From a virus (taxonomy: Duplodnaviria > Heunggongvirae > Uroviricota > Caudoviricetes): DNA of 8,977 nt. The notes under the pieces are model-generated. The model did not search any database, was not told where the DNA came from, and saw only the letters and a program-made list of their open reading frames with translations. The position numbers and the translations under genes are program-made. The stretch lies in the IMG/VR virus record IMGVR_UViG_2547132488_000020; one strand, 5' to 3'. How positions within the stretch are numbered: position 1 is the first letter of the stretch; the number at the start of each line of letters is the position of its first letter. Positions 1 through 8,977 of this stretch are shown here, piece after piece.

Positions 1-16
1 AAGATGTGTAAATATT

Positions 17-62
17 GATTACGCCGGATTATGCCGGGTTATTTGCAAGTATTCAGGGTTAT
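17..62 (+). promoter_or_regulatory. Phased 10-bp direct-repeat element, copy A, upstream of the structural operon
   Basis: Hexamers GATTAC (17-22), GATTAT (27-32), GGTTAT (37-42), weaker AAGTAT (47-52) and GGTTAT (57-62) recur at exactly 10-bp spacing. Positions 17-42 match 4897-4922 at 23 of 26 bases. Role as a protein-binding site is inferred. Confidence 0.4.
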
Positions 63-177
63 AAGTTACTGATTTTACATTAAAAAGCTCACATTGTGGC
101 TATTGTGTTCGGCCTGGTTACTGTATATCTTTAAGTCATTCCAGACGATTTATTGCACAACAACCGGAGCATTTTTA

Positions 178-1062
178 ATGAACGTTTTATCTCAACTTAT
201 CAACGACGCGTTGAACCACCAGGGCGGCCATGTTCGCACTGATGGCAACGGTGATATTACTCAATTTATCCCTATGGAACCGGCAGCAGTTCGCTACCTG
301 TCCATGAATGACGTGCTGACCCCGAAAGGCGGCAAGCAGACTACCTTCAACGCTGTTCTGGCTGAACGTTCGCTGGTGGCACAGGCAGGCGCTGAAATCA
401 TCCGCATTCCTGGCCCGATGACCACGCAACCGACCGGCCAGACTGGTGCAACGACTGGCCGCGAAGTGGCTGACCGCTTCGTTGTCATCCGCCCTGGTGC
501 GTTCGCCAAAGTGGCTGACGGCGAAGAAATCAGCATGAGCGGCAAGCCGTACATGGTTGCAGCATTCGACCACAACACCGCACCGGCTTACGGCGTTGGC
601 TACACCCTGACCCGCCAGCAACTGAAACACGAATTCGCTGACGATACAGTGCTGGAAGCGGTCAACACCGCCATTGAACGCGGCATTGCCGATCTGGCTG
701 ACTTCGTGCTGCTGAACCACCTGGAAACCGCAGCGGAAACGCTGGCCAGCCCGTCATTCACCGCAGTGGCGCAGAAGATTGCAGCCAAAAACCTGCGCTT
801 TGATGAAGTTAAAGCCATTGTTGGCGGTGATTGCACCGGCCTGGAACTGCAAGACGGCGTTCTGCGCGCCTACGGTGTACGCGCTGAAATCAGCGGCCAG
901 ACTTCCAGCACAATCATTGGCGCTTTCGGCAATGCAGCCGTTGCCCTGGATGATGAAATTCGCGTCACCGCCAGACGCGTGCTGAATGGTGCGGTTGAAG
1001 TGGTGGTTTGGGTGAACGCATCCGCACTGGTGCCTGACTCAACTATGTTCTGGAAGGCTTGA
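178..1062 (+). CDS. Putative virion structural protein, possibly HK97-fold major capsid-like (294 aa); function unverified
   Basis: Long ORF with ATG at 178 preceded by GGAG (166-169) at 8-nt spacing. The 94-177 extension in the ORF track starts at TTG and reads as hydrophobic noise. Gly/Ala/Thr/Val-rich, acidic composition with a C-terminal segment IIGAFGNAAVALDDEIRV that resembles the conserved C-terminal strand of HK97-family capsid proteins (recalled from memory, not searched). First gene of an operon ending in a tape-measure gene. Confidence 0.6.
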   Translation: MNVLSQLINDALNHQGGHVRTDGNGDITQFIPMEPAAVRYLSMNDVLTPKGGKQTTFNAVLAERSLVAQAGAEIIRIPGPMTTQPTGQTGATTGREVADRFVVIRPGAFAKVADGEEISMSGKPYMVAAFDHNTAPAYGVGYTLTRQQLKHEFADDTVLEAVNTAIERGIADLADFVLLNHLETAAETLASPSFTAVAQKIAAKNLRFDEVKAIVGGDCTGLELQDGVLRAYGVRAEISGQTSSTIIGAFGNAAVALDDEIRVTARRVLNGAVEVVVWVNASALVPDSTMFWKA

Positions 1063-1064
1063 TC

Positions 1065-1379
1065 ATGTGGTGGGGCAGCAAAAAAGCGGCAGCGGAGCGC
1101 GCTGCCCTGCCGGGTGAAATCCTGGCAGCTATCGAAGGTGTGGCCATGTATGTGCGCCACGGTGATGAAAACACACCGCGCATCGTAGTGCAGCCGGTTG
1201 GCTGGTCAGGATTCATCTACAGCGATGACGCTGCTGAAAAATGGATTCGCAAGGCTTACCCGGAGATTAAGCAGTACCAGATTGAACGCGCCGTGAATTA
1301 CCTCGCTTCCCTGGTGCGCAGTCACTACCGCGAGCAGCGCCCGAAACAGAAGCGCGAAAGCTGGATGAACAGGTACTAA
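1065..1379 (+). CDS. Hypothetical protein (104 aa)
   Basis: ATG at 1065 with GGAAGG (1053-1058) SD at 6-nt spacing, 2 nt after the upstream stop; stop TAA 1377-1379 lies 3 nt before the next start. No motif recognised. Confidence 0.55.
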   Translation: MWWGSKKAAAERAALPGEILAAIEGVAMYVRHGDENTPRIVVQPVGWSGFIYSDDAAEKWIRKAYPEIKQYQIERAVNYLASLVRSHYREQRPKQKRESWMNRY

Positions 1380-1382
1380 GCC

Positions 1383-1547
1383 ATGAAACGACAAGAAACA
1401 CGCCAGCACGTAACGGTACGCCTCGCCCCTGACCTGGTGCGCCAGGTCGAAAGAGAGCAAGCCAAACTGGAACGCAGAACAGGCATCCGCCCTTCACGCA
1501 GCCAGGTGATTGAAAAGTTTCTGAGTAGCGGGCTGAACGGCAAATAA
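1383..1547 (+). CDS. Ribbon-helix-helix (CopG/Arc/MetJ-like) DNA-binding protein (54 aa)
   Basis: Hand translation gives MKRQETRQHVTVRLAPDLVRQVEREQAKLERRTGIRPSRSQVIEKFLSSGLNGK. The pattern beta-strand VTVRL, helix PDLVRQVEREQAK, Gly turn, helix RSQVIEKFL is the classic RHH layout. AGGT SD 8 nt upstream. Below the ORF-track size cutoff. Confidence 0.6.
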   Translation: MKRQETRQHVTVRLAPDLVRQVEREQAKLERRTGIRPSRSQVIEKFLSSGLNGK

Positions 1548-1761
1548 TGGCCAAGAATACAGGTTTCACCGGTTCCCTGTGCCCAAAATAACCGGCCAAA
1601 TTTAACCTTCATCGTTCCTCAGACGATGGATGCTGGAACCAGGTTGGTGGTCATCCTGGACGGTCAAAACCACCACTAATTCCACACCGGTTGCGCCGCA
1701 CCGGTCACCTAAAAGCGCGCACTCACTTAATCATCAACAACTATTGTTAGCGGCCAATACT

Positions 1762-2079
1762 ATGAAAAACCATGACCTGTACGAATCAATGAAAGAAGAA
1801 GCGCGTTTGATCCTTAGCGAAACAAAGCGTTTCCAAACCATTTCAGAGAAAAACCCAATCAGCTACGAAGCAGCCGACCTGCTGGCCAGCCTTCGCAACC
1901 GTTTAAACGCATTCGAACACATGACCGATGAAGCCGGTCGCGCCATGCGCAACGAAGCGGAAAGCCACGCATCGACCCTGGAACGCAAGAAGTGGCAACC
2001 ATCCAGCCGCATCAGTTCCGGTGAACGGGCCAAGCGCCAGGCAGTGAAGCGCGGCGCTATCCTGGTGCGGAGCGCATAA
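1762..2079 (+). CDS. Hypothetical helical, charged protein (105 aa; alternative start 1630 gives 149 aa)
   Basis: ORF in frame with 1630..2079. The N-terminal extension from 1630 is low-complexity and overlaps the CACCGGT motifs, so 1762 is preferred, but neither start has a good SD. Stop TAA 2077-2079 is 2 nt before the next ATG. Confidence 0.5.
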   Translation: MKNHDLYESMKEEARLILSETKRFQTISEKNPISYEAADLLASLRNRLNAFEHMTDEAGRAMRNEAESHASTLERKKWQPSSRISSGERAKRQAVKRGAILVRSA

Positions 2080-2081
2080 GA

Positions 2082-2291
2082 ATGGCAACCAACAACAACA
2101 TTTATGAAGCCGTTCTGAACGTCATCGGCGTAGCCGACAAGATGACGAAGAACAACGCAAGCCAACTGACCGACGCACAAAAGTTGGCGATCAAGAACCT
2201 TAGCGGCGCGATGAAGTCCTGGAAAGGTATCACGTTTGGGATGCGCGACATCACCGCCAACGACAAACCAACAGAAAGCAAAACCGCATAA
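2082..2291 (+). CDS. Hypothetical small protein (69 aa)
   Basis: ATG 2082 tightly following the upstream stop, with GGAG 2066-2069 upstream. Position just before the tape-measure gene is where tail assembly chaperones usually sit, but no sequence evidence supports that role. Confidence 0.5.
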   Translation: MATNNNIYEAVLNVIGVADKMTKNNASQLTDAQKLAIKNLSGAMKSWKGITFGMRDITANDKPTESKTA

Positions 2292-2300
2292 GGGGGCACC

Positions 2301-2507
2301 ATGCTGGACCGTATTCACACAAAACCGGAAGGAACAAACCCCTGGCCTGAACTGGTGGATATGGTCCTGCCCAAAGTTATGGTTTGCGAAACAGCGGAGG
2401 GAATGCAGGCACAGCGTAAACATCGCACCGAATGCGCCCTGCAACTGGCTGCTGCCGCCCTGCGGGCTGCTGGTGAACACACCCTGGCAGAAAATCTACT
2501 TAATTAA
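2301..2507 (+). CDS. Hypothetical small protein (68 aa)
   Basis: ATG 2301 preceded by a strong AGGGGG SD (2291-2296). Same reading frame as 2082..2291, separated only by TAA plus 9 nt. Confidence 0.5.
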   Translation: MLDRIHTKPEGTNPWPELVDMVLPKVMVCETAEGMQAQRKHRTECALQLAAAALRAAGEHTLAENLLN

Positions 2508-2528
2508 TTCTTTCAGAGACAAATTATT

Positions 2529-4820
2529 ATGGCCAATAAGAAGTTGAACGCCACAATCACCATCGGGGGTGCCGTTTCCGGCAGCCTCCGCGGTGCTTTT
2601 GGTACGGTGGAGAAATCCACCATCAAGATTGGCGCAGCGATTAAGCACATGTCGCGCGAACAGCGCCAGCTTAACGACGCTATGAAGCGTTATGGGCAAA
2701 ACTCCACGATGGTTGACCGCCTGCGCGGTCGTTACGAAAACATCGTAGGCCAGGTGGAACGCCTGCGGGCTGCGCAAGAGCGTTTAAACAGAGTGCAACG
2801 CGCCAGCACGGAAAACCTGGCCAAGCAGGCACAGCTACGCGGGCAGATTATCGATACCGTTATGGCTGGTGCTGCCGTTGCCGCACCTATCAAGATTGCC
2901 GCAGATCGTGAACAGCACGCCATTGGCATTGCCAAACAACTGGACGGCGCACGCGATGCAGCGGGCAACCTGACGGCGAAGTTTTGGGAAATGCGCAAGG
3001 CCGTTGCTGACCTTGGGCACGAAATTCCACTGGCCACAAACGACCTGTTTGACATGGCCACAGCAGGGCTGCGCATGGGCGTAGCTGGCGACCAAATCCT
3101 GGGGTTCACCCGGAACGTGGCCAAACTGGCCAGCGCCTTGGAACTGAACCCGGAAGAAGTCGCAGACAATATGGGCAAAATCCAGAATGTTTATCGACTT
3201 ACTCAAGCTGAGCTTGTGCGCCTTGGTGATGCTATTAATTACCTGGACGACCAAAACACCGTTAAAGGCGGTGAGCTTATCGACTTCCTACAGCGTGTTG
3301 GTGGTTCCGCCTCCCTCGCCAAACTCACTGCCAACGATATGGCAGCAATCGGCACCACGCTGATTTCTATGGGTGAAAGCGCAGACACTGCCGCAACGTC
3401 AGTGAAGGCGCTTGTTTCCAAGATGACGCTGGGCAGCAAATCCACGAAATCTGCGCGCGAAGCGTTCAAGGAATTGGGTTATTCCGCGCAGGAAGTGGCG
3501 AAATCCATGCAACTGGATAGCGTCAAGACCATCGAAAACTTTATGAAGACGGTCAACAAGCTGCCAGATTACAAGAAATCCGGCATCCTGGTGTCCATCT
3601 TCGGGCAGGAACACGTTGGTTCTATCTCCAAACTGGCAGCCAACATGGACAAGTTTGGCGAGGCGTTGCACCAGGCTAATGGCGAAATGTCCAAAGGCAG
3701 TGTGCAGAAGGAATTCCAGAACACCGTCAACACCACCAACGCGCAGATGGTTATCCTGCGTAACCGCACCGCTGACGTGGCTGACAATATCGGCACCGTC
3801 CTGCTGCCGACCGTCAACGACGCAGCCAAAGGCATTGGCCGCATCACAACTGTTGTGGCGAACTTCGCGGCGGAACACCCCGGCCTGACCAAAGCCGTGG
3901 TGGGCACAGCGATGGCGCTCACGTCCCTGCGTGTGGCCACCCTGGCGGCGCAGTTCGGCTTCACGTTCCTGAAAGGTGGCGTGTTGCAGATGTCCAGCCT
4001 GTTTGCCCGCATGAACGCATCTGCCGTTCTGGCCAGCACCCGTGGCCTGCCTGCGGTGGCTACCGGCATTCGTGCCGTTGGTGCGGCGTTCATATCCACT
4101 GGCGTGGGTGCTGCCGTAGCTGGCCTGGCGCTGGCAGGTTATCAGATTTACCGCCATTGGGCCGGTGTGAAGGCTTTTTTTGGTGGCGTTGGTGAAGGCA
4201 TCAAATCCGGGTTGGAACCGCTTAGCGATGCCCTGCATCGCCTGTATGAGCGCATGGGGCCATTGAAGCCCGTCATTGATGGCGTGGGCGCTGCGGTTAA
4301 GACGGTTTTCAACTGGTTCACGTCACTGACCGAACCGGTCAAATACAGCGGCGAGGAACTGGATAAGGCCGGTAAAATGGGGATGACGTTCGGTAAGACC
4401 CTGGCGGCTGGCATCGAGCTTGTGACCGCACCGATCACGTTCCTGATTGATAAGATTCTGTGGGTGTCTGACAACATCGGCAACCTGACCAACAAGGCAC
4501 TGGAGTTTAAAAACGCCGTGTCTGATGTTGCTGGTGGTGCGTGGCAGAAAACCAAAGATTTCTTTAGCAATCCGTTCGGTGAAGACGAAAGCAGCCAGCC
4601 AGCAGCGACCGCCGCCCCTGGTGCGTCCTTGCCTTCACCGGCACTGGCTAACCGCACCGGCAACACAACGGTGAACACGAACGACCAGTACACCATCAAC
4701 GTGAAGGCCGAGCCTGGCATGAATGAAGATGCGCTGGCAAATAAGGTGGCGCAGAAGCTGAAACAGCAGCAAGGAATCCGAAATCGTAGCATGATGAATG
4801 ACGGATTAGCAGCACCGTAA
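2529..4820 (+). CDS. Phage tail tape-measure protein-like (763 aa)
   Basis: Uninterrupted 2292-nt ORF. N-terminal Arg/Gln/Glu/Ala-rich helical region; a core (approx. aa 150-330) reading ATNDLFDMATAGLRMGVAGDQILGFTRNVAKLASALELNPEEVADNMGKI ... IGTTLISMGESADTAATSVKALVSKMTLGS that matches my memory of the TP901-family tape-measure core; a long Gly/Ala-rich hydrophobic segment (approx. aa 450-560). Size and layout are typical of TMPs. Not verified by search. Confidence 0.75.
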   Translation: MANKKLNATITIGGAVSGSLRGAFGTVEKSTIKIGAAIKHMSREQRQLNDAMKRYGQNSTMVDRLRGRYENIVGQVERLRAAQERLNRVQRASTENLAKQAQLRGQIIDTVMAGAAVAAPIKIAADREQHAIGIAKQLDGARDAAGNLTAKFWEMRKAVADLGHEIPLATNDLFDMATAGLRMGVAGDQILGFTRNVAKLASALELNPEEVADNMGKIQNVYRLTQAELVRLGDAINYLDDQNTVKGGELIDFLQRVGGSASLAKLTANDMAAIGTTLISMGESADTAATSVKALVSKMTLGSKSTKSAREAFKELGYSAQEVAKSMQLDSVKTIENFMKTVNKLPDYKKSGILVSIFGQEHVGSISKLAANMDKFGEALHQANGEMSKGSVQKEFQNTVNTTNAQMVILRNRTADVADNIGTVLLPTVNDAAKGIGRITTVVANFAAEHPGLTKAVVGTAMALTSLRVATLAAQFGFTFLKGGVLQMSSLFARMNASAVLASTRGLPAVATGIRAVGAAFISTGVGAAVAGLALAGYQIYRHWAGVKAFFGGVGEGIKSGLEPLSDALHRLYERMGPLKPVIDGVGAAVKTVFNWFTSLTEPVKYSGEELDKAGKMGMTFGKTLAAGIELVTAPITFLIDKILWVSDNIGNLTNKALEFKNAVSDVAGGAWQKTKDFFSNPFGEDESSQPAATAAPGASLPSPALANRTGNTTVNTNDQYTINVKAEPGMNEDALANKVAQKLKQQQGIRNRSMMNDGLAAP

Positions 4821-4845
4821 TGAAATGAAATTGATGACTGCAACC

Positions 4846-4877
4846 AAAGCCTGGGTGAAAACTCTGGCTTTTTTTTA
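4846..4877 (+). terminator. Intrinsic terminator after the tape-measure gene
   Basis: Hairpin 4846-4856 pairing with 4861-4871 (about 11 bp, one mismatch, one GU) around a GAAA tetraloop, followed by T8 (4869-4876). Confidence 0.6.
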
Positions 4878-4896
4878 TGGTTAGCATTTATTAACC

Positions 4897-4922
4897 GATT
4901 ATGCCGGATTATGTGGGGTTAT
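4897..4922 (+). promoter_or_regulatory. Phased 10-bp direct-repeat element, copy B, upstream of the replication operon
   Basis: GATTATGCCGGATTATGTGGGGTTAT; 23 of 26 bases identical to 17-42, with GATTAT, GATTAT, GGTTAT at 10-bp phasing. Confidence 0.4.
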
Positions 4923-4992
4923 GAGTGACATTTACCTTTTTAAATGCCTGAAATTATTTATGAATTTTCGGCCTATATTTTGGCAAAATAGC

Positions 4993-5020
4993 TTGCAGAA
5001 ACCGGATTGCAGGGTATCAT
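4993..5020 (+). promoter_or_regulatory. Candidate sigma70-type promoter for the replication operon
   Basis: TTGCAG (4993-4998), 16-bp spacer, TATCAT (5015-5020); predicted start near 5027. Sequence match only. Confidence 0.35.
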
Positions 5021-5025
5021 TTGAA

Positions 5026-5050
5026 TTGTGGCGCTTGCACACCGCCACAA
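5026..5050. promoter_or_regulatory. Perfect inverted repeat TTGTGGCG-N9-CGCCACAA (operator-like or RNA hairpin)
   Basis: 8-bp perfect arms 5026-5033 and 5043-5050 with a 9-bp spacer, sitting at the predicted start site of the 4993-5020 promoter. Confidence 0.35.
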
Positions 5051-5051
5051 A

Positions 5052-5120
5052 AAGGAAAACCCCCGGACTGCGCGAACAATCCAGGGGGCTTAATGAAAGT
5101 CTAGGTTAGCGGCCTGACTA
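5052..5120 (-). ncRNA. Candidate small antisense RNA (about 65 nt) with its own promoter and intrinsic terminator
   Basis: On the minus strand: TTGCTA (plus 5150-5155), 17-bp spacer, TAGTAT (plus 5127-5132); no ATG in the transcribed stretch; GC-rich hairpin (plus 5060-5066 pairing with 5081-5088, one bulge) followed on the minus strand by UUUUCCUUUUU (plus 5049-5059). Ends are approximate. Confidence 0.3.
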
Positions 5121-5221
5121 GGAAAAATACTAGCAAAGACCTTTACCTTTAGCAAGTTAAACCCCCCTTCATTGAGCCACCGATTTTAGCGCAGCCTCAA
5201 CGAAATATTGAGGAATGCGAA

Positions 5222-5497
5222 ATGAAATTGCACGACCTGGCTGACGCCATCCTGAAAACCAGAACCGTTGAAACTCGCTGTGATGCTGCGTTCAAATTCG
5301 CTGACGCTATGCTGCGCAACGGTTCAAGCATCACCGACACAGCGGAAGCAACCTACCGCATTGTAATGCGCGGGAACAAAGCCTACCGCCTGAACAAAGA
5401 TGACGCCTGGCGCATCACTGCGCACGCCTACGCTGAACAACTGGCGGAACGCGAAGTGGCCACCGTCCTGGCGCAGATTGCCGGGGGTGCGAAATGA
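5222..5497 (+). CDS. Small hypothetical protein, first gene of the replication operon (91 aa)
   Basis: ATG 5222 with GAGGA SD (5210-5214) at 7-nt spacing; stop overlaps the next start as ATGA. Shares the motif [YF]x[LF]N[KR]xDAW and an AGGA[KA] C-terminus with the next ORF. Confidence 0.6.
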   Translation: MKLHDLADAILKTRTVETRCDAAFKFADAMLRNGSSITDTAEATYRIVMRGNKAYRLNKDDAWRITAHAYAEQLAEREVATVLAQIAGGAK

Positions 5498-5727
5498 GCA
5501 TCATCACCCTGCATCGCCTTATGCGCGAACCTGCTACCAGCCAGACGCACGCACAGTGCGTGGCCATCATGCAGGAACTGATTAAGCAGGCCATCCAGTC
5601 TGGCCGCCCGCTGCAATATTCCATCTACCTGGGGCACCTGGCAGAGCACACCCGCTTCCCGTTCAACCGCGTGGACGCCTGGCAAATGGCGCTGGATATG
5701 CAGCGCAAGGCAGGGGGTGCGGCATGA
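5494..5727 (+). CDS. Small hypothetical protein resembling the preceding ORF (77 aa)
   Basis: Start overlaps the upstream stop (ATGA at 5494-5497) and its stop overlaps the primase start (ATGA at 5724-5727). GGGGGTG SD-like sequence sits inside the upstream C-terminus. Confidence 0.6.
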   Translation: MSIITLHRLMREPATSQTHAQCVAIMQELIKQAIQSGRPLQYSIYLGHLAEHTRFPFNRVDAWQMALDMQRKAGGAA

Positions 5728-8012
5728 GTCTGGCACACGAAAAGTACGCCTGGACTGAACAGGACGCAGCCGAGGCGTTGACATTTATTGACCCTGATTG
5801 CGACCACGAAACCTGGACCCGCCTGGCGTTTGCGGTGAAGGCTGAATTTGGTGACGCTGGATTTGATGTCTGGAACGATTGGAGCAAACAGGGCCAGAAG
5901 TACGACAGCAAAGAAGCACGCCAGAAGTGGAAAAGCGCCAAGCGGCACGGCGGAGTAACCATCGGCACGCTGATTGACCTTTCCATGCAGAACGGCTGGA
6001 AGCCGGGCACCAGGAAAGAGCTTTCAATAGACGAGATTCAGGCTCGCGCCGCGAAGCGTGAGGCCGAAGCTAAAGCCGAGGCAGAGCGCAAGCGCCACGA
6101 CCAGGCAGCAGCGGCAGCCCGCGCCCTGGAAATATGGGAAGCATCGGAACCGCTGGAAGGTAACGAACACCCGTATTTGCAGCGCAAAGGTGTGCTGTCT
6201 TTCGGCCTGAACGTTGGCCGCTGGAAGGGATACGAAAATGCACTGCTGGTGCCAATCCGCAACGCTGATGGTTCCCTAACCAGCTTGCAGGCAATCTTCC
6301 CGAACACCAACACTGACCTGGGCCGTGACCGTGACTACCTGAAAGACGGCCAGAAGCACGGTTGTTTCCACCTGATTGGCGGTAAGCCTGTTGGCGAAAA
6401 GCCGGTGATTGTGGTTTGCGAGGGTTACGCCACTGGTGCCAGCATCCACCAGGCAACAGGCCATTACGTGGCCGTGGCTTTCGACAGGAGCAACCTTAAA
6501 GCTGTGGCGCAGGCCATGCGCAAGATGGTTGGCCGCGCCACAATAATTGTGGCCGCTGATAACGACCAGTGGGAGAAGGGCAACCCCGGAAAAACCGATG
6601 CAGGTAAGGCAGCGCAGGCGGTTGGCGGCCTGGTGGCTGTGCCTGAATTCGATGACCTGACCACGAAGCCGACCGACTTCAACGACCTGCATAAATTGCA
6701 GGGAATTGATGCCGTGCGCAGCCAGGTGCAGGCTGTTATTCCAGCACCGGAGGAAAAGCGGTTCCTGCCACTGGATTCTAATGTGGTGCCGTTTGACTTC
6801 CCCTACACGTCAGACAGGATGCAGCCGCTTAACAACTGGGAAAACCTTGATTGGCTGTTAAGTCAGTACGGCATTACCGCTCGTTACAACGAGATCAGCA
6901 AGGAAGTTGAAATCAACGTGCCTGGTAAAAGCTATGGCGGTGACGGTGATGACGATAGCGCGCTGATTGAAGTGACCAGCCTGTGCGCCCGTAACCGGAT
7001 GCCAAAAGCTGACGTGGCTGACTACATCAAACTGATTGGCAAAGAGAACCGTTACAACCCGGTCAAAGACTTCATTCTGTCCAGGCCGTGGGATGGTTGC
7101 AGCCGGTTTGCTGACCTGTTAGCCACCATTGAAACGCCAGCAGATTACAGCCGTGACCTGATGGCGCTACTGATGAAACGCTGGCTGGTGTCGGCAGTGG
7201 CGGCGACATTTGAGGAACGCGGGTTCTGGTCCAAAGGCATCCTGGTGTTCCAGGGGGAGCAATCCCTTGGGAAAACGTCATGGATTAAGGCGCTGCTGCC
7301 GGAGGAAGAACAGGAAAAGCTATTGCTGGTTGGTGCTGCGATGGACCCTAGCAACAAAGACAGCGTATCGCAGGCAATTGGCCGCTGGATTGTGGAGCTT
7401 GGCGAACTGGACACCACATTCCGCAAGTCTGACATATCGGACCTGAAAAACTTCATCAGCCGCCCACATGACGTGCTGCGCAAGCCGTATGATCGCCGTG
7501 AATCGAAGTATAAGCGCAGGACTGTGTTCTTCGCATCAGTGAACCCGAAACACTTCCTGCATGACGAAACCGGCAACGTGCGTTTCTGGACCATTCCGGT
7601 GACCGGGCTGAACTATAATCACGGCATCGACGTGCAGCAGTTATGGGCCGAAGTGCATCACTGGTACACGAAAGGCGAACGCTGGTGGCTGGAACGCGAG
7701 GAAGAACAGCGCCTGGAAGCGGTGAACGCTGACCACGCGCAGGTTGACCCGCTCGAGGAAATGATTTTAGCCCGCTTCCGCTGGGATGAAACCCGCATGG
7801 AGGTTTACACCGAAATGTCAGCCGCAGAAGTGCTGATAGCGATTGGCTACGACAAGCCAACCAAATCGCAGGCCACATCATGCGGCAACATCCTGCGCAA
7901 GCTGACTGGCAAGGAGCCGCGCAGAACAGCCAAAGGGCGGTTCTACCCGATACCGCCAAAAGAATTACCAAAGCCACAAAGCTATTACGACGAAACCCAA
8001 GGCCCATTTTGA
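5724..8012 (+). CDS. Replicative primase-helicase, P4 alpha-type (Toprim primase plus P-loop NTPase; 762 aa)
   Basis: Toprim motifs VVCEGYATG (Glu233, nt 6417-6425) and AADNDQW (Asp279/Asp281, nt 6558-6566); Walker A GEQSLGKTS (aa 511-519, nt 7254-7280); Walker B-like IVELGELD; Trp-rich N-terminal domain ending GVTIGTLIDL. Architecture matches the phage/plasmid primase P4 family from memory. Confidence 0.9.
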   Translation: MSLAHEKYAWTEQDAAEALTFIDPDCDHETWTRLAFAVKAEFGDAGFDVWNDWSKQGQKYDSKEARQKWKSAKRHGGVTIGTLIDLSMQNGWKPGTRKELSIDEIQARAAKREAEAKAEAERKRHDQAAAAARALEIWEASEPLEGNEHPYLQRKGVLSFGLNVGRWKGYENALLVPIRNADGSLTSLQAIFPNTNTDLGRDRDYLKDGQKHGCFHLIGGKPVGEKPVIVVCEGYATGASIHQATGHYVAVAFDRSNLKAVAQAMRKMVGRATIIVAADNDQWEKGNPGKTDAGKAAQAVGGLVAVPEFDDLTTKPTDFNDLHKLQGIDAVRSQVQAVIPAPEEKRFLPLDSNVVPFDFPYTSDRMQPLNNWENLDWLLSQYGITARYNEISKEVEINVPGKSYGGDGDDDSALIEVTSLCARNRMPKADVADYIKLIGKENRYNPVKDFILSRPWDGCSRFADLLATIETPADYSRDLMALLMKRWLVSAVAATFEERGFWSKGILVFQGEQSLGKTSWIKALLPEEEQEKLLLVGAAMDPSNKDSVSQAIGRWIVELGELDTTFRKSDISDLKNFISRPHDVLRKPYDRRESKYKRRTVFFASVNPKHFLHDETGNVRFWTIPVTGLNYNHGIDVQQLWAEVHHWYTKGERWWLEREEEQRLEAVNADHAQVDPLEEMILARFRWDETRMEVYTEMSAAEVLIAIGYDKPTKSQATSCGNILRKLTGKEPRRTAKGRFYPIPPKELPKPQSYYDETQGPF

Positions 8013-8022
8013 GGAATAAATC

Positions 8023-8250
8023 ATGAGTTATCGCGCGATCATCAGTACATTTGACCCTGAAAACGCATCAACTGTTAACACTGAATTATTCCAGACCTTC
8101 GCAACCGCACCAGAAGCGGAAGCACATGGACGGAAATCACTTGCAGAGATTCAGCAGGAATTCTTCCAGATGGGTTATGCGTTCATCGTCAGCTACTTCA
8201 TCGTTGAAGTACCAGCGGCGGAAATCATCCAGTTTATTGCCCGCACGTAA
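8023..8250 (+). CDS. Hypothetical small protein (75 aa) at the end of the replication operon
   Basis: ATG 8023 with GAGGA SD 7 nt upstream, 10 nt after the primase stop; followed by a terminator. No motif recognised. Confidence 0.55.
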   Translation: MSYRAIISTFDPENASTVNTELFQTFATAPEAEAHGRKSLAEIQQEFFQMGYAFIVSYFIVEVPAAEIIQFIART

Positions 8251-8273
8251 CATCACAACAATTGTTGTTCACC

Positions 8274-8300
8274 GCCCTGGCACCTGCCGGGGCTTTTTTA
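8274..8300 (+). terminator. Intrinsic terminator closing the replication operon
   Basis: Stem 8274-8281 pairing with 8286-8293 (8 bp including one GU), 4-nt loop, then T6 (8294-8299). Confidence 0.6.
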
Positions 8301-8311
8301 TTGTCTGGCTG

Positions 8312-8572
8312 TGACACCTAGGTGTCATCCTGTCTTAAGGTGTCACAGTCGTAAGTGTCTGTTTTTGCTTATTAATGACACCTATGACACCTATGACACC
8401 TATTTTGAAAGATTTATTAGACCGTAAAAAACCGCCGCGAAATAACGGTTACCCTTTTTTTGAAAACAGGTGTCAAGGTGTCACTACCAACCCATGCAAT
8501 CAGCATAAATCGCATATGAATCATGCACTTATGTGTGTGACACCTATGGTGACACCTCAACCCAAGGTGTCA
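8312..8572. repeat. Iteron array: 11 copies of heptamer TGACACC/GGTGTCA flanking an AT-rich stretch; putative replication origin
   Basis: Forward copies at 8312, 8376, 8385, 8394, 8538, 8550; reverse copies at 8321, 8339, 8469, 8477, 8566. Includes a perfect 16-bp palindrome (8312-8327) and three tandem TGACACCTA 9-mers (8376-8402). AT-rich segment 8401-8466 with A6 and T7 runs. Confidence 0.7.
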
Positions 8573-8977
8573 TTCTTTCAGGGCATAGCTGCGCACCGTT
8601 ATGGCGTTATGAATCCACTCATTTGTAACAACGCTTTTTCACATCTAACCAAAGCGGCAGCCGGAATAGGTACAACATACAGAAGTATGATGTAACTACA
8701 GGAAACGAGCCTTTCAGCCTTGTTTTGCGTTCAAACAGTAGCTGCTCAGTAAACAGCCAGAACGTTGCACATATCGCAACAATAAGCCTGTGTGAATACG
8801 GGCTGAAAGCGCGCGGAATATGTCAGATTATGCGCCGTTCGCCTGCCAGCACCTTCCTGGTGCTTCTTTCTGCCTGCAAACCCACCATATTTAACATAAT
8901 GGACCTTGCGCGCACCGACTGGACGCCTGCCTGCCTCAAAAATCGAAGGTACTTCCGAGGGGGCACAGCCTGCGGGG

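What the first reader, a model, noticed from the sequence alone, without database searches (positions are those of the whole stretch)
5222..5727. Tandem pair of mutually similar small proteins translationally coupled to the primase
The 91-aa and 77-aa proteins share a single Cys in a similar N-terminal context, the motif [YF]x[LF]N[KR]xDAW and an AGGA[KA] C-terminus, and both junctions read GGGGGTGCGnnATGA. This indicates a tandem duplication and fixed stoichiometry with the primase. In P4 the equivalent position holds epsilon, which derepresses the helper prophage, so these may be regulators, helper-manipulation factors or primase accessory proteins.
Basis: partly seen in the sequence, partly recalled or inferred. 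Interest (0 to 1): 0.5.

Follow-up and report, generated by a model that had tools for sequence, protein, structure and literature searches.

The report
Paired small proteins upstream of satellite primase
Two small helical proteins of unknown function, probably ancient duplicates of each other, are encoded just ahead of the primase of a ~9 kb enterobacterial plasmid related to phage satellites; they travel with the operon's control region, not with the primase, so they are unlikely to be dedicated primase subunits.

Summary
ORF A (5222-5497, 91 aa) and ORF B (5494-5727, 77 aa) are real genes under purifying selection. Each overlaps the next gene by ATGA, and GGGGGTGCGnnATGA occurs exactly twice (0.01 expected). 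Both carry [YF]x[LF]N[KR]xDAW at residues 55-63.

Duplication is plausible but not proven. BLASTP finds nothing. Profile-profile alignment spans 65 columns in one register (P=4e-4, 0 of 700 shuffles, 14 real-protein controls far lower). Both AF2 models are four-helix proteins with matching helix boundaries.

- The shared Cys is not conserved (Arg in relatives).
- The AGGA tail is a by-product of a Shine-Dalgarno block inside the upstream ORF.
- The P4 analogy is off: cnr abuts alpha, epsilon lies two genes upstream, and neither resembles A or B.

The window is a whole plasmid whose integrated relatives read int-alpA-B-primase next to fis, as in PICMI satellites (alpA-up1-prim). A sits in the alpA slot of integrase-less forms. 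A and B at 99-100% identity accompany three different primase/iteron systems, so they belong to the leader/control module. Function is unknown. My best guess is early-operon regulators or adaptors. The family is an orphan: no Pfam, PHROG, NCBIfam, PADLOC, PDB or BFVD relative.

The parts
4846..4876 (+). Terminator-like hairpin plus T-run after the tape-measure gene. It marks the A-B-primase genes as a separate transcription unit.
   Evidence: Read from the sequence. Cronobacter relatives have a hairpin plus T-run of different sequence at the same place. Read by eye, not scored by the scanner.
4897..4926 (+). Three tandem 10-bp repeats (GATTATGCCG GATTATGTGG GGTTATGAGT), an operator-like element. 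A second copy lies at 17-46, upstream of the other operon.
   Evidence: Conserved upstream of both operons in L001, L003, L004, L016; in L006 at both sites but only partly at the first; in L002 upstream of the A-B-primase operon only. A variant is present in Cronobacter.
4993..5020 (+). Promoter-like TTGCAG-N16-TATCAT for the A-B-primase operon.
   Evidence: Read from the sequence. The same TTGCAG-N16-TAATCT is found in Cronobacter, and a TTGCA block is conserved in the leader of integrated forms. It falls below the scanner's threshold.
5028..5048 (+). Leader hairpin 1.
   Evidence: Pairing is kept with different sequences in L013 and L014.
5060..5088 (.). Leader hairpin 2. On the minus strand it is a 12-16 bp stem followed by a T-rich tract, a candidate terminator of an antisense RNA.
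   Evidence: Terminator scan on the minus strand, 5087..5060. Pairing is kept with different sequence in Cronobacter, and a matching block is present in the integrated forms.
5210..5214 (+). Shine-Dalgarno GAGGA for ORF A, in the context TTGAGGAATGCGAAATG.
   Evidence: The same TTGAGG-N6-7-ATG context precedes alpA in integrated relatives.
5222..5497 (+). ORF A, 91 aa. A four-helix orphan protein that occupies the alpA slot in the integrase-less plasmid forms.
5384..5410 (+). Motif YRLNKDDAW (A residues 55-63): the loop plus the N-cap of helix 4.
5483..5497 (+). A/B junction GGGGGTGCGAAATGA. The SD for B lies inside the last codons of A (Gly-Gly-Ala), and the stop and start codons overlap.
5494..5727 (+). 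ORF B, 77 aa. A four-helix orphan protein that lies immediately upstream of the primase in every element of the family examined, plasmid or integrated.
5656..5682 (+). Motif FPFNRVDAW (B residues 55-63): the loop plus the N-cap of helix 4.
5713..5727 (+). B/primase junction GGGGGTGCGGCATGA. The SD for the primase lies inside the last codons of B, and the stop and start codons overlap. It is also the recombination boundary where primase modules are exchanged.
5724..8012 (+). Primase-helicase (PriCT_2 + Toprim + VapE-like). An exchangeable module.
8312..8572 (.). Iteron field: 11 perfect TGACACCT octamers in both orientations, the probable origin. It is exchanged together with the primase.

Best explanation
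A and B are diverged tandem paralogues of an orphan family of small four-helix proteins. They are the first two genes of the early/replication operon of a ~9 kb element: leader, A, B, primase, a 75-aa ORF, then the iteron origin. The element is a plasmid derivative of PICMI/PICI-like satellites.

Shown:
- Each gene carries the Shine-Dalgarno block of the next gene in its last codons and overlaps it by ATGA. The three proteins are therefore set up for coupled translation. This also explains the AGGA tails and the repeated junction.
- B sits immediately upstream of the primase in every form examined.
- A sits exactly where the integrated satellites have the regulator AlpA.
- A and B are inherited with the conserved leader. 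They are not inherited with the primase and its iterons, which are swapped as a unit at the B/primase junction.

Inferred:
- The shared motif is mainly structural. It reads as a helix N-capping box (N/T/S at 58, D/E at 61) with a hydrophobic staple (57, 62) and a core Trp at the start of helix 4. It therefore marks a common fold rather than a catalytic site.
- The proteins act as small non-enzymatic regulators or adaptors of the control module. They would set the expression or activity level of the early operon, and hence copy number, through a partner that is the same whichever primase is present: the leader DNA/RNA, or a host or helper-phage factor. A would be the plasmid-state substitute for AlpA.

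The function itself is not shown.
For: Paralogy:
- hhalign score is 24.2-24.7 over 64-65 columns (P 4-5e-4). 0 of 700 shuffles reach it.
- The motif-free N-terminal halves align in the same register (2 of 300 shuffles).
- Real-protein controls score 8.2-15.4.
- AF2 helices lie at 3-11/16-32/37-48/59-89 in A and 3-10/16-36/39-51/59-72 in B.

Coupling: a G-rich SD-like block lies 5-7 nt before ATGA at every A/B and B/primase junction in four lineages, and also at AlpA/B.

Module membership:
- A and B are 99-100% identical in L003-L006, whose primases are 30-42% identical.
- Iterons are TGACACCT, GGTTACAA or GGGGAACA according to primase type, not according to A/B.

AlpA slot:
- Integrated relatives read int-alpA-B-primase.
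- Their leaders are homologous to the leader upstream of A.
- The window has no AlpA/HTH_17 gene.

Analogy: alpA-up1-prim is the early regulon of PICMI (PMC10803314). P4 cnr abuts alpha and controls plasmid copy number (PMC8628076).

Charge: both proteins are mildly to strongly basic, pI 8.9-11.2, except the Raoultella B at 6.9.
Against: - hhalign probability is only 17-36%, and BLASTP sees nothing. Independent origin with a convergent capping-box motif is therefore not excluded.
- In PICMI115 the positional analogue up1 is dispensable for induction and transfer. The slot holds nine unrelated families or nothing. This fits an accessory effector at least as well as a regulator.
Confidence: 0.45

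Rival explanations
1. A and/or B are primase-helicase accessory or copy-number subunits that bind the initiator directly, as P4 Cnr binds alpha. Translational coupling would deliver them in step with the primase.
For: - B always sits immediately upstream of the primase with an ATGA overlap.
- P4 has cnr in the same position.
- The elements live as plasmids and need copy control.
Against: - A and B at 99-100% identity serve primases of 30-42% identity in all three domains, with three different iteron sets.
- L011's primase lacks PriCT_2 and Toprim altogether, yet it keeps B.
- There is no profile similarity to the PriCT-2 domain (P 0.12-0.21) or to Cnr.
Confidence: 0.2
2. A and B are early accessory effectors aimed at a host or helper-phage protein: helper derepression or takeover, or anti-defence. 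This is the role epsilon plays in P4, but without homology to it. The pair would be duplicates diversifying under an arms race.
For: - The alpA-prim slot in PICMI is filled by nine unrelated small families or left empty, and up1 is dispensable for transfer.
- A and B are independent of the replication module.
- A evolves faster than B: 70% against 99% in L016, and 24-29% against 42-45% between E. coli and Cronobacter (local-alignment identities).
- The family is orphan and lineage-restricted.
Against: - There is no hit to the epsilon/Ash Pfam family or to any PADLOC or PHROG family.
- B is retained in every element examined, which is more than expected of a dispensable cargo gene.
- The helper phage is unknown.
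Confidence: 0.25
3. The two proteins are not paralogues. Two unrelated small helical proteins share a common helix-capping motif and an SD-imposed C-terminus by convergence.
For: - BLASTP finds no alignment, and pairwise shuffle tests give p=0.09 and 0.31.
- hhalign probability is only 8-36%.
- The AGGA tails are explained by the SD.
- Capping boxes are common in helical proteins (own knowledge).
Against: - The motif is at identical residue numbers.
- Motif-free N-terminal halves align in the same register.
- 0 of 700 shuffles and 0 of 14 real-protein controls reach the observed score.
- The predicted helix boundaries match.
- The two genes are adjacent.
Confidence: 0.3
4. The ORFs matter mainly as translated leaders. 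Like tap/repY-type leader peptides of IncFII and IncI plasmids, their translation opens the mRNA for primase initiation, and the protein products are incidental.
For: - The overlapping stop and start codons and the internal SD blocks are conserved.
- The leader contains conserved hairpins and a possible antisense RNA.
Against: - Both products are conserved at the amino-acid level, with third-position-biased substitutions.
- They have a conserved motif.
- They fold confidently in AF2, with pLDDT 90.6 and 83.4.
- At 77-101 aa they are far longer than classical leader peptides.
Confidence: 0.05

Closest known systems
PICMI satellites of Vibrionaceae: the small gene between alpA and prim (up1 and eight other families), PMC10803314
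   Same: Integrated relatives of this element read int-alpA-B-primase and lie next to fis. This is the PICMI layout and neighbourhood. In PICMI, alpA-up1-prim is the early regulon, and the slot holds a single small protein of unknown function.
   Different: - The exhaustive profile search listed only two proteins outside the query family above E=1e-3, both read as spurious; their organisms were not looked up.
- These elements are enterobacterial and larger. They also carry a 294-aa protein operon and a tape-measure gene.
- They exist as integrase-less plasmids in which a second, paralogous gene (A) replaces alpA.
Bacteriophage P4 cnr (ORF106), copy-number regulator encoded immediately upstream of the alpha primase
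   Same: A small protein encoded directly upstream of the primase-helicase in the same operon of a satellite that can live as a plasmid (PMC8628076).
   Different: - There is no sequence similarity (best BLASTP E=15).
- cnr does not overlap alpha; there is a 14-nt gap.
- A and B do not co-vary with the primase, whereas Cnr is reported to act through alpha (own knowledge).
Bacteriophage P4 epsilon (Ash), derepressor of the helper prophage
   Same: A small protein (95 aa) in the same leftward early operon as the primase.
   Different: - It is not in the equivalent position: ORF151 and cnr lie between it and alpha.
- There is no similarity, and no hit to its Pfam family PF10554.
AlpA (PF05930) regulators of PICI, PICMI and P4-like satellites
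   Same: A occupies the same slot, behind a homologous leader and the same SD context.
   Different: A has no AlpA/HTH_17 signature. It is predicted to be all-helical, with four helices and no wing.
Plasmid Cop proteins co-transcribed with rep (pMV158 CopG, R1 CopB), often together with a countertranscript RNA
   Same: Small proteins encoded upstream of the initiator in one operon, behind a leader with conserved hairpins and a candidate antisense terminator. The comparison itself is from my own knowledge.
   Different: No ribbon-helix-helix or other DNA-binding fold was detected in A or B. Repressor activity is untested.

Membership tests
P4 epsilon / Ash (PF10554) | Sequence match to the family profile | tested here: not met
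   No Pfam hit at E<=0.1 for A or B. BLASTP against P4 epsilon gives E=36 for B and nothing for A.
P4 epsilon / Ash (PF10554) | Position in the operon equivalent to that of A/B (adjacent to the primase) | tested here: not met
   The P4 order is ORF88-cI-epsilon-ORF151-ORF106(cnr)-alpha.
P4 epsilon / Ash (PF10554) | Derepresses the helper prophage | not testable with these tools
   Needs expression in a helper lysogen. The helper is unknown.
P4 Cnr (ORF106) | Sequence similarity to Cnr | tested here: not met
   Best BLASTP E=15 over 37 residues for A, and none for B.
P4 Cnr (ORF106) | Encoded immediately upstream of the primase-helicase in the same operon | tested here: met
   B abuts the primase in every element of the family examined. 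cnr abuts alpha.
P4 Cnr (ORF106) | Negative control of plasmid copy number through the initiator | not testable with these tools
   Indirect evidence argues against initiator-specific action: the same A/B accompany three initiator/iteron types.
PICMI alpA-prim slot genes (up1 class) | A single small gene between alpA and prim in an int-alpA-X-prim element integrated by fis | tested here: met
   L007-L009 and L011 have int-alpA-B-primase. L007 is followed by fis-dusB-prmA. L019 has two small genes (48 aa plus an 83-aa B-like protein) in the slot.
PICMI alpA-prim slot genes (up1 class) | Homology to Up1 of PICMI115 | tested here: inconclusive
An exhaustive hmmsearch of the B profile over 1.84e9 proteins found only 4 hits: one family member, one Cronobacter relative and two read as spurious.
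AlpA (PF05930 / HTH_17) | Winged-helix MerR-like HTH profile match | tested here: not met
   No Pfam hit for A or B. AlpA of relatives is recognised by the same library. tblastn with AlpA/HTH_17 queries finds nothing in the window.
Primase helix-bundle domains (PriCT-2, PriX, RepB' HBD) | Profile or fold similarity above background | tested here: not met
Tandem paralogues (common origin of A and B) | Statistically supported sequence or profile similarity over the domain | tested here: met
   hhalign score 24.7 over 65 columns, P=3.8e-4. 0 of 700 shuffles reach the score. The motif-free halves align in the same register (2 of 300 shuffles). Controls score 8.2-15.4. HH probability is only 36%, so the support is moderate.
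Tandem paralogues (common origin of A and B) | Same fold by direct structural superposition | not testable with these tools
Known anti-phage defence proteins (PADLOC) | Profile match | tested here: not met
   No hit at E<=1 for A, B or their relatives.

The most novel reading that the evidence does not exclude
A and B define a new family of satellite/plasmid early proteins that forms a portable control cassette together with a structured leader and a possible antisense RNA. The cassette would drive any of several unrelated primase-origin modules. The duplicated member A would have taken over the role of AlpA when a PICMI-like satellite lost its integrase and became an autonomous ~9 kb plasmid. 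If so, these proteins would be the switch between the integrated satellite lifestyle and the plasmid lifestyle in a so far undescribed enterobacterial branch of PICMI-like elements that also carries a tape-measure gene.
Probability: 0.25. Interest if true: 0.6.

Novelty: new variant of a known kind. Interest (0 to 1): 0.4.

Why it matters
Small genes of unknown function next to satellite primases are widespread: up1 and eight other families in PICMI, and cnr plus a 75-aa family in P4-like elements. Almost none of them is understood.

This case offers natural experiments. The same two proteins are combined with three different primase/iteron systems. One of them replaces AlpA exactly when the integrase is lost. 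This separates 'control module' from 'initiator module' without any wet work, and it gives clear, cheap tests: copy number, operon expression and partner pull-down on a 9 kb plasmid that is common in E. coli.

It also warns against two tempting inferences. A shared C-terminal peptide can simply be a Shine-Dalgarno sequence read as protein. A shared 'motif' can be a helix cap.

Tried and rejected
1. Direct pairwise homology: BLASTP gave no alignment, and Smith-Waterman and global alignment shuffles were not significant.
2. Known families: Pfam, PHROGs, NCBIfam and PADLOC gave nothing for A, B or their relatives. Profile searches of PDB sequences gave only E>=0.24 noise.
5. Homology to P4 Cnr, epsilon or ORF151: none.
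6. A DNA-level repeat as the cause of the protein motif: the shared 10-mer GACGCCTGGC is just the codons of D-A-W and is not enriched elsewhere. TGACGCCT at 5401 is a one-mismatch chance match to the iteron.
7. Widening the family:
   - Two scans of GTDB genome representatives found no relative.
   - IMG/VR holds one 9.45 kb contig.
   - The exhaustive profile search found one distant branch in Cronobacter.
   - More divergent members came only from neighbouring units on metagenome contigs.
8. Co-variation of motif position 58 between A and B: N/N in the E. coli type and T/T in Cronobacter, but T/S in L021. This is too weak to use.
9. The 12-nt exact repeat GAAATGAAATTG at 4822 and 5219 is absent in Cronobacter and remains unexplained. 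It is probably chance.
10. Literature: no paper in the library mentions these proteins or plasmids, and none describes a tape-measure-carrying satellite of this layout.

Full report
**1. What is in the sequence**

The window has all its long ORFs on the + strand. The region of the finding reads as follows.
- The tape-measure gene lies at 2529-4820 (PF10145).
- A 401-nt non-coding leader follows (4821-5221).
- ORF A lies at 5222-5497 (91 aa) and ORF B at 5494-5727 (77 aa).
- The primase-helicase lies at 5724-8012 (PriCT_2 + Toprim + VapE-like).
- A 75-aa ORF follows (8023-8250).

A/B and B/primase overlap by ATGA. The string GGGGGTGCGnnATGA occurs exactly twice in the window, at the two junctions, against 0.01 expected.

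Both proteins carry the claimed motif, and at the same residue numbers, 55-63: YRLNKDDAW and FPFNRVDAW. The ORFs are real genes. In comparisons with diverged relatives, substitutions pile up at third codon positions and many are synonymous.

**2. Where the window comes from**

The 8977 nt correspond to a complete circular ~9 kb 'plasmid' known from several enterobacteria.
- E. coli pSCU-121-2: 98.7% identity over the full length.
- Salmonella pR17.0904_9.3k.
- E. coli pM121-3.
- Proteus pW47-1.

One IMG/VR viral contig of 9.45 kb also matches. Protein A's 90% cluster is indexed in 365 blocks of the collection, mostly on 5-10 kb contigs. In every record A and B are annotated as hypothetical proteins. 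No paper in the library mentions them.

**3. Are A and B duplicates?**

Pairwise tests say no.
- BLASTP finds nothing at E<=100.
- The best local alignment is just the motif (shuffle p=0.09).
- The global alignment is unremarkable (p=0.31).

The families are tiny: 3 and 5 clusters among 5.8e9 proteins. Only one further branch turned up among 1.84e9 representatives. More divergent members came from Cronobacter 9.4 kb elements and from neighbouring units on metagenome contigs.

With these, profile-profile comparison gives a consistent alignment of A 2-69 with B 5-69.
- The score is 24.2-24.7, P=4-5e-4, HH probability 31-36%. The tool's own run gave 17%.
- None of 700 column-shuffled profiles reaches the score: mean 9-10, SD about 2, maximum 19.2.
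- When the motif and everything after it are cut off, residues 1-53 still align in the same register (score 14.4, reached by 2 of 300 shuffles).
- Fourteen comparisons of A or B with other real small-protein families of the same elements, and with the primases' PriCT-2 domain, score 8.2-15.4; the 12 other-protein alignments span 1-19 columns.

I conclude that an old tandem duplication is the more likely reading, about 0.7, but it is not proven.

**4. Which shared features are informative**

- **The 'single Cys'.** It is not conserved. It is Arg in most relatives of both families.
- **The AGGA[KA] tail.**
  - It is the protein reading of a Shine-Dalgarno block. All A/B and B/primase junctions in four lineages have GGGGGTG, GAGGTGG, GGGGTGG, GGCGGTG or GGGAGG 5-7 nt before ATGA.
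  - The same block precedes B where the upstream gene is the unrelated alpA.
  - In Cronobacter A the tail is EVVQ or GVAK, still encoding the SD.
  - The tail and the junction repeat are therefore evidence for coupled translation, not for duplication.
- **The motif.**
  - It generalises to [FL]-x-[FLM]-[NTS]-x-x-D-A-W in B and to R-L-[NT]-K-D-[DE]-[AV]-W in A.
  - AF2 places the start of helix 4 at residue 59 in both models.
  - From general knowledge of helix capping, N/T/S at 58 with D/E at 61 is a capping box. The hydrophobic residues at 57 and 62 form a hydrophobic staple.
  - I therefore read the motif as mainly structural (inference). This also explains the N/T/S and D/E exchanges.

**5. 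Context: what kind of element, and which slot**

Relatives of B occur in integrated elements with the order integrase - AlpA - B - primase - ... (Raoultella L007, and metagenome contigs L008, L009, L011, L019).
- L007 lies next to fis-dusB-prmA.
- This is the architecture and neighbourhood of the Vibrio PICMI satellites, in which alpA-up1-prim is the early regulon.
- up1 is a small protein of unknown function and is dispensable for induction and transfer.
- The alpA-prim slot holds Up1, one of eight other unrelated small families, or nothing (PMC10803314).

The leader upstream of A in the plasmids is homologous to the leader upstream of alpA in the integrated forms, down to the TTGAGG-N6-7-ATG start context. 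A therefore sits exactly in the alpA slot of forms that lack both integrase and alpA. The window has no AlpA/HTH_17 gene at all. On L019 an integrated unit with alpA is followed by a plasmid-type unit with A.

**6. A and B do not belong to the primase-origin module**

Across elements with A and B 99-100% identical to the window, the primase is only 30-42% identical in its PriCT-2, Toprim and helicase parts (L003-L006). DNA similarity to pM121-3 stops at the primase start codon.

Downstream of the primase lies an iteron field whose sequence changes with the primase type.
- TGACACCT, 8-11 copies: window, L014, L011, L016.
- GGTTACAA, 10 copies: L004, L013.
- GGGGAACA, 11 copies: L003, L022.
- A CACAGGGAC type: L007.

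Conversely, the near-identical Cronobacter A/B pairs of L013 and L014 accompany two different primase/iteron types. L011's primase even lacks PriCT_2 and Toprim but keeps B. L016 has A at 70% identity and B at 99%.

Primase plus origin is therefore one exchangeable module. Leader-A-B stays together in most elements but is itself mosaic, as L016 shows. A tight, co-evolving A/B-primase complex is unlikely, although binding to a conserved helicase core is not excluded.

**7. Comparison with P4**

In P4 the order is ORF88(AlpA-like)-cI-epsilon-ORF151-ORF106(cnr)-alpha. The survey of P4-like elements places cnr (90% of elements) and a 75-aa unknown family (61%) between epsilon and alpha (PMC8628076). 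The positional analogue of B is thus cnr, not epsilon. Neither Cnr, epsilon nor ORF151 resembles A or B. The primase shares only its Toprim region with alpha (32% over 209 aa).

**8. Fold and family searches**

- Nothing was found in Pfam, PHROGs, NCBIfam or PADLOC.
- PDB sequence profiles gave nothing.
- BFVD gives nothing below E about 1.

**9. How it most likely works**

Shown:
- The operon structure.
- The SD-in-ORF plus ATGA arrangement.
- Conservation of B next to the primase.
- Replacement of alpA by A.
- Co-inheritance with the leader rather than with the initiator and origin.

Inferred:
- A and B are small, mostly basic, non-enzymatic helical proteins of the control module.
- They act on something that is the same whichever primase is present: the leader DNA/RNA, or a host or helper factor.
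- In this way they set early-operon output or copy number.
- A serves the plasmid state, where AlpA is absent.

I give this 0.45. The rivals are:
- A generic primase/helicase accessory of the Cnr kind (0.2).
- A host- or helper-directed accessory effector (0.25).
- Mere translated leaders (0.05).

Independently, non-paralogy retains about 0.3.

**10. Verdict**

The duplication idea survives stringent controls at moderate confidence. Two of the four 'shared features' (the Cys and the AGGA tail) are not evidence for it. The P4-epsilon analogy is wrong in position and in sequence. The proteins are a new orphan family in a known kind of slot. The interesting part is the natural modular shuffling around them and the alpA-to-A replacement. 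Interest is 0.4.

Noticed in passing
window 1-8977 (whole): The window is an entire ~9 kb circular element found as a 'non-mobilizable plasmid' in E. coli, Salmonella and Proteus, and as an IMG/VR viral contig. It carries a 763-aa tape-measure protein gene (2529-4820) and a primase but no recognisable capsid, portal or terminase gene and no integrase. Integrated relatives have int-alpA and lie next to fis, as PICMI satellites do. I found no description of such a tape-measure-carrying satellite/plasmid family in the library.
   Followed up: partly
window 8312-8572: Iteron field: 11 perfect TGACACCT octamers in both orientations, downstream of the primase and the 75-aa ORF and of a terminator-like hairpin (~8270-8300). 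Relatives with other primase types have GGTTACAA, GGGGAACA or CACAGGGAC repeats instead, so initiator and origin are exchanged as one module.
   Followed up: yes
window 17-46 and 4897-4926: The same triple 10-bp direct repeat (GATTAYGCCG GATTATGYSG GGTTAT) precedes both operons. It is conserved in the E. coli-type plasmids and present as a variant in Cronobacter. It is probably an operator for an unidentified regulator. Candidates are the RHH-like 54-aa ORF at 1383-1547 and a helper-phage factor.
   Followed up: partly
window 4993-5150: The leader of the A-B-primase operon has a conserved promoter-like TTGCAG-N16-TATCAT and two hairpins (5028-5048, 5060-5088) that keep pairing with different sequences in Cronobacter. 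On the minus strand, hairpin 2 plus a T-rich tract looks like a terminator, with a possible TTGCTA-N17-TAGTAT promoter ~60 nt upstream. This is a candidate antisense (countertranscript) RNA. There is no Rfam match.
   Followed up: partly
window 178-1059: A 294-aa protein, the first gene of the other operon, is conserved at 56-99% in every element of the family examined, plasmid or integrated. It has no hit in Pfam, PHROGs, NCBIfam or PADLOC. It could be a structural or morphogenesis protein.
   Followed up: no
window 1383-1547: A 54-aa ORF (MKRQETRQHVTVRLAPDLVRQVEREQAK...) looks like a ribbon-helix-helix regulator. It has only a weak hit to phrog_4738, a transcriptional repressor family (E=0.04).
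   Followed up: no
L019 1-16989 and L021 1-11606: Metagenome contigs carry two different units of the family in tandem: an integrated int-alpA unit followed by a plasmid-type unit in L019, and a window-type unit followed by a unit with an 84-aa + 101-aa A/B pair in L021. These are either cointegrates or heteromultimers, or assembly chimeras. CP077066.1 is a head-to-tail dimer (17,382 bp) in which B is extended to 91 aa by a frameshift-like change.
   Followed up: partly
window 4822-4833 and 5219-5230: An exact 12-nt repeat, GAAATGAAATTG, lies just after the tape-measure stop codon and again at the start of ORF A. It is absent from Cronobacter relatives. It is unexplained and possibly chance.
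   Followed up: partly
window 5494-5501 and 5724-5731; L007 3633, L013 6697: B in the window and the Raoultella type, and most of the primases, begin ATGAG(T/C) (Met-Ser). Several of them, including the window primase, begin ATGAGTCT (Met-Ser-Leu), directly after the SD block. This short shared junction may be the crossover point for module exchange.
   Followed up: no
L002 2319-2798; L023-L025: Some family members carry an extra 159-aa AbiEi-antitoxin-like gene in the small-gene cluster. This is a possible defence or addiction cargo that the window lacks.
   Followed up: no
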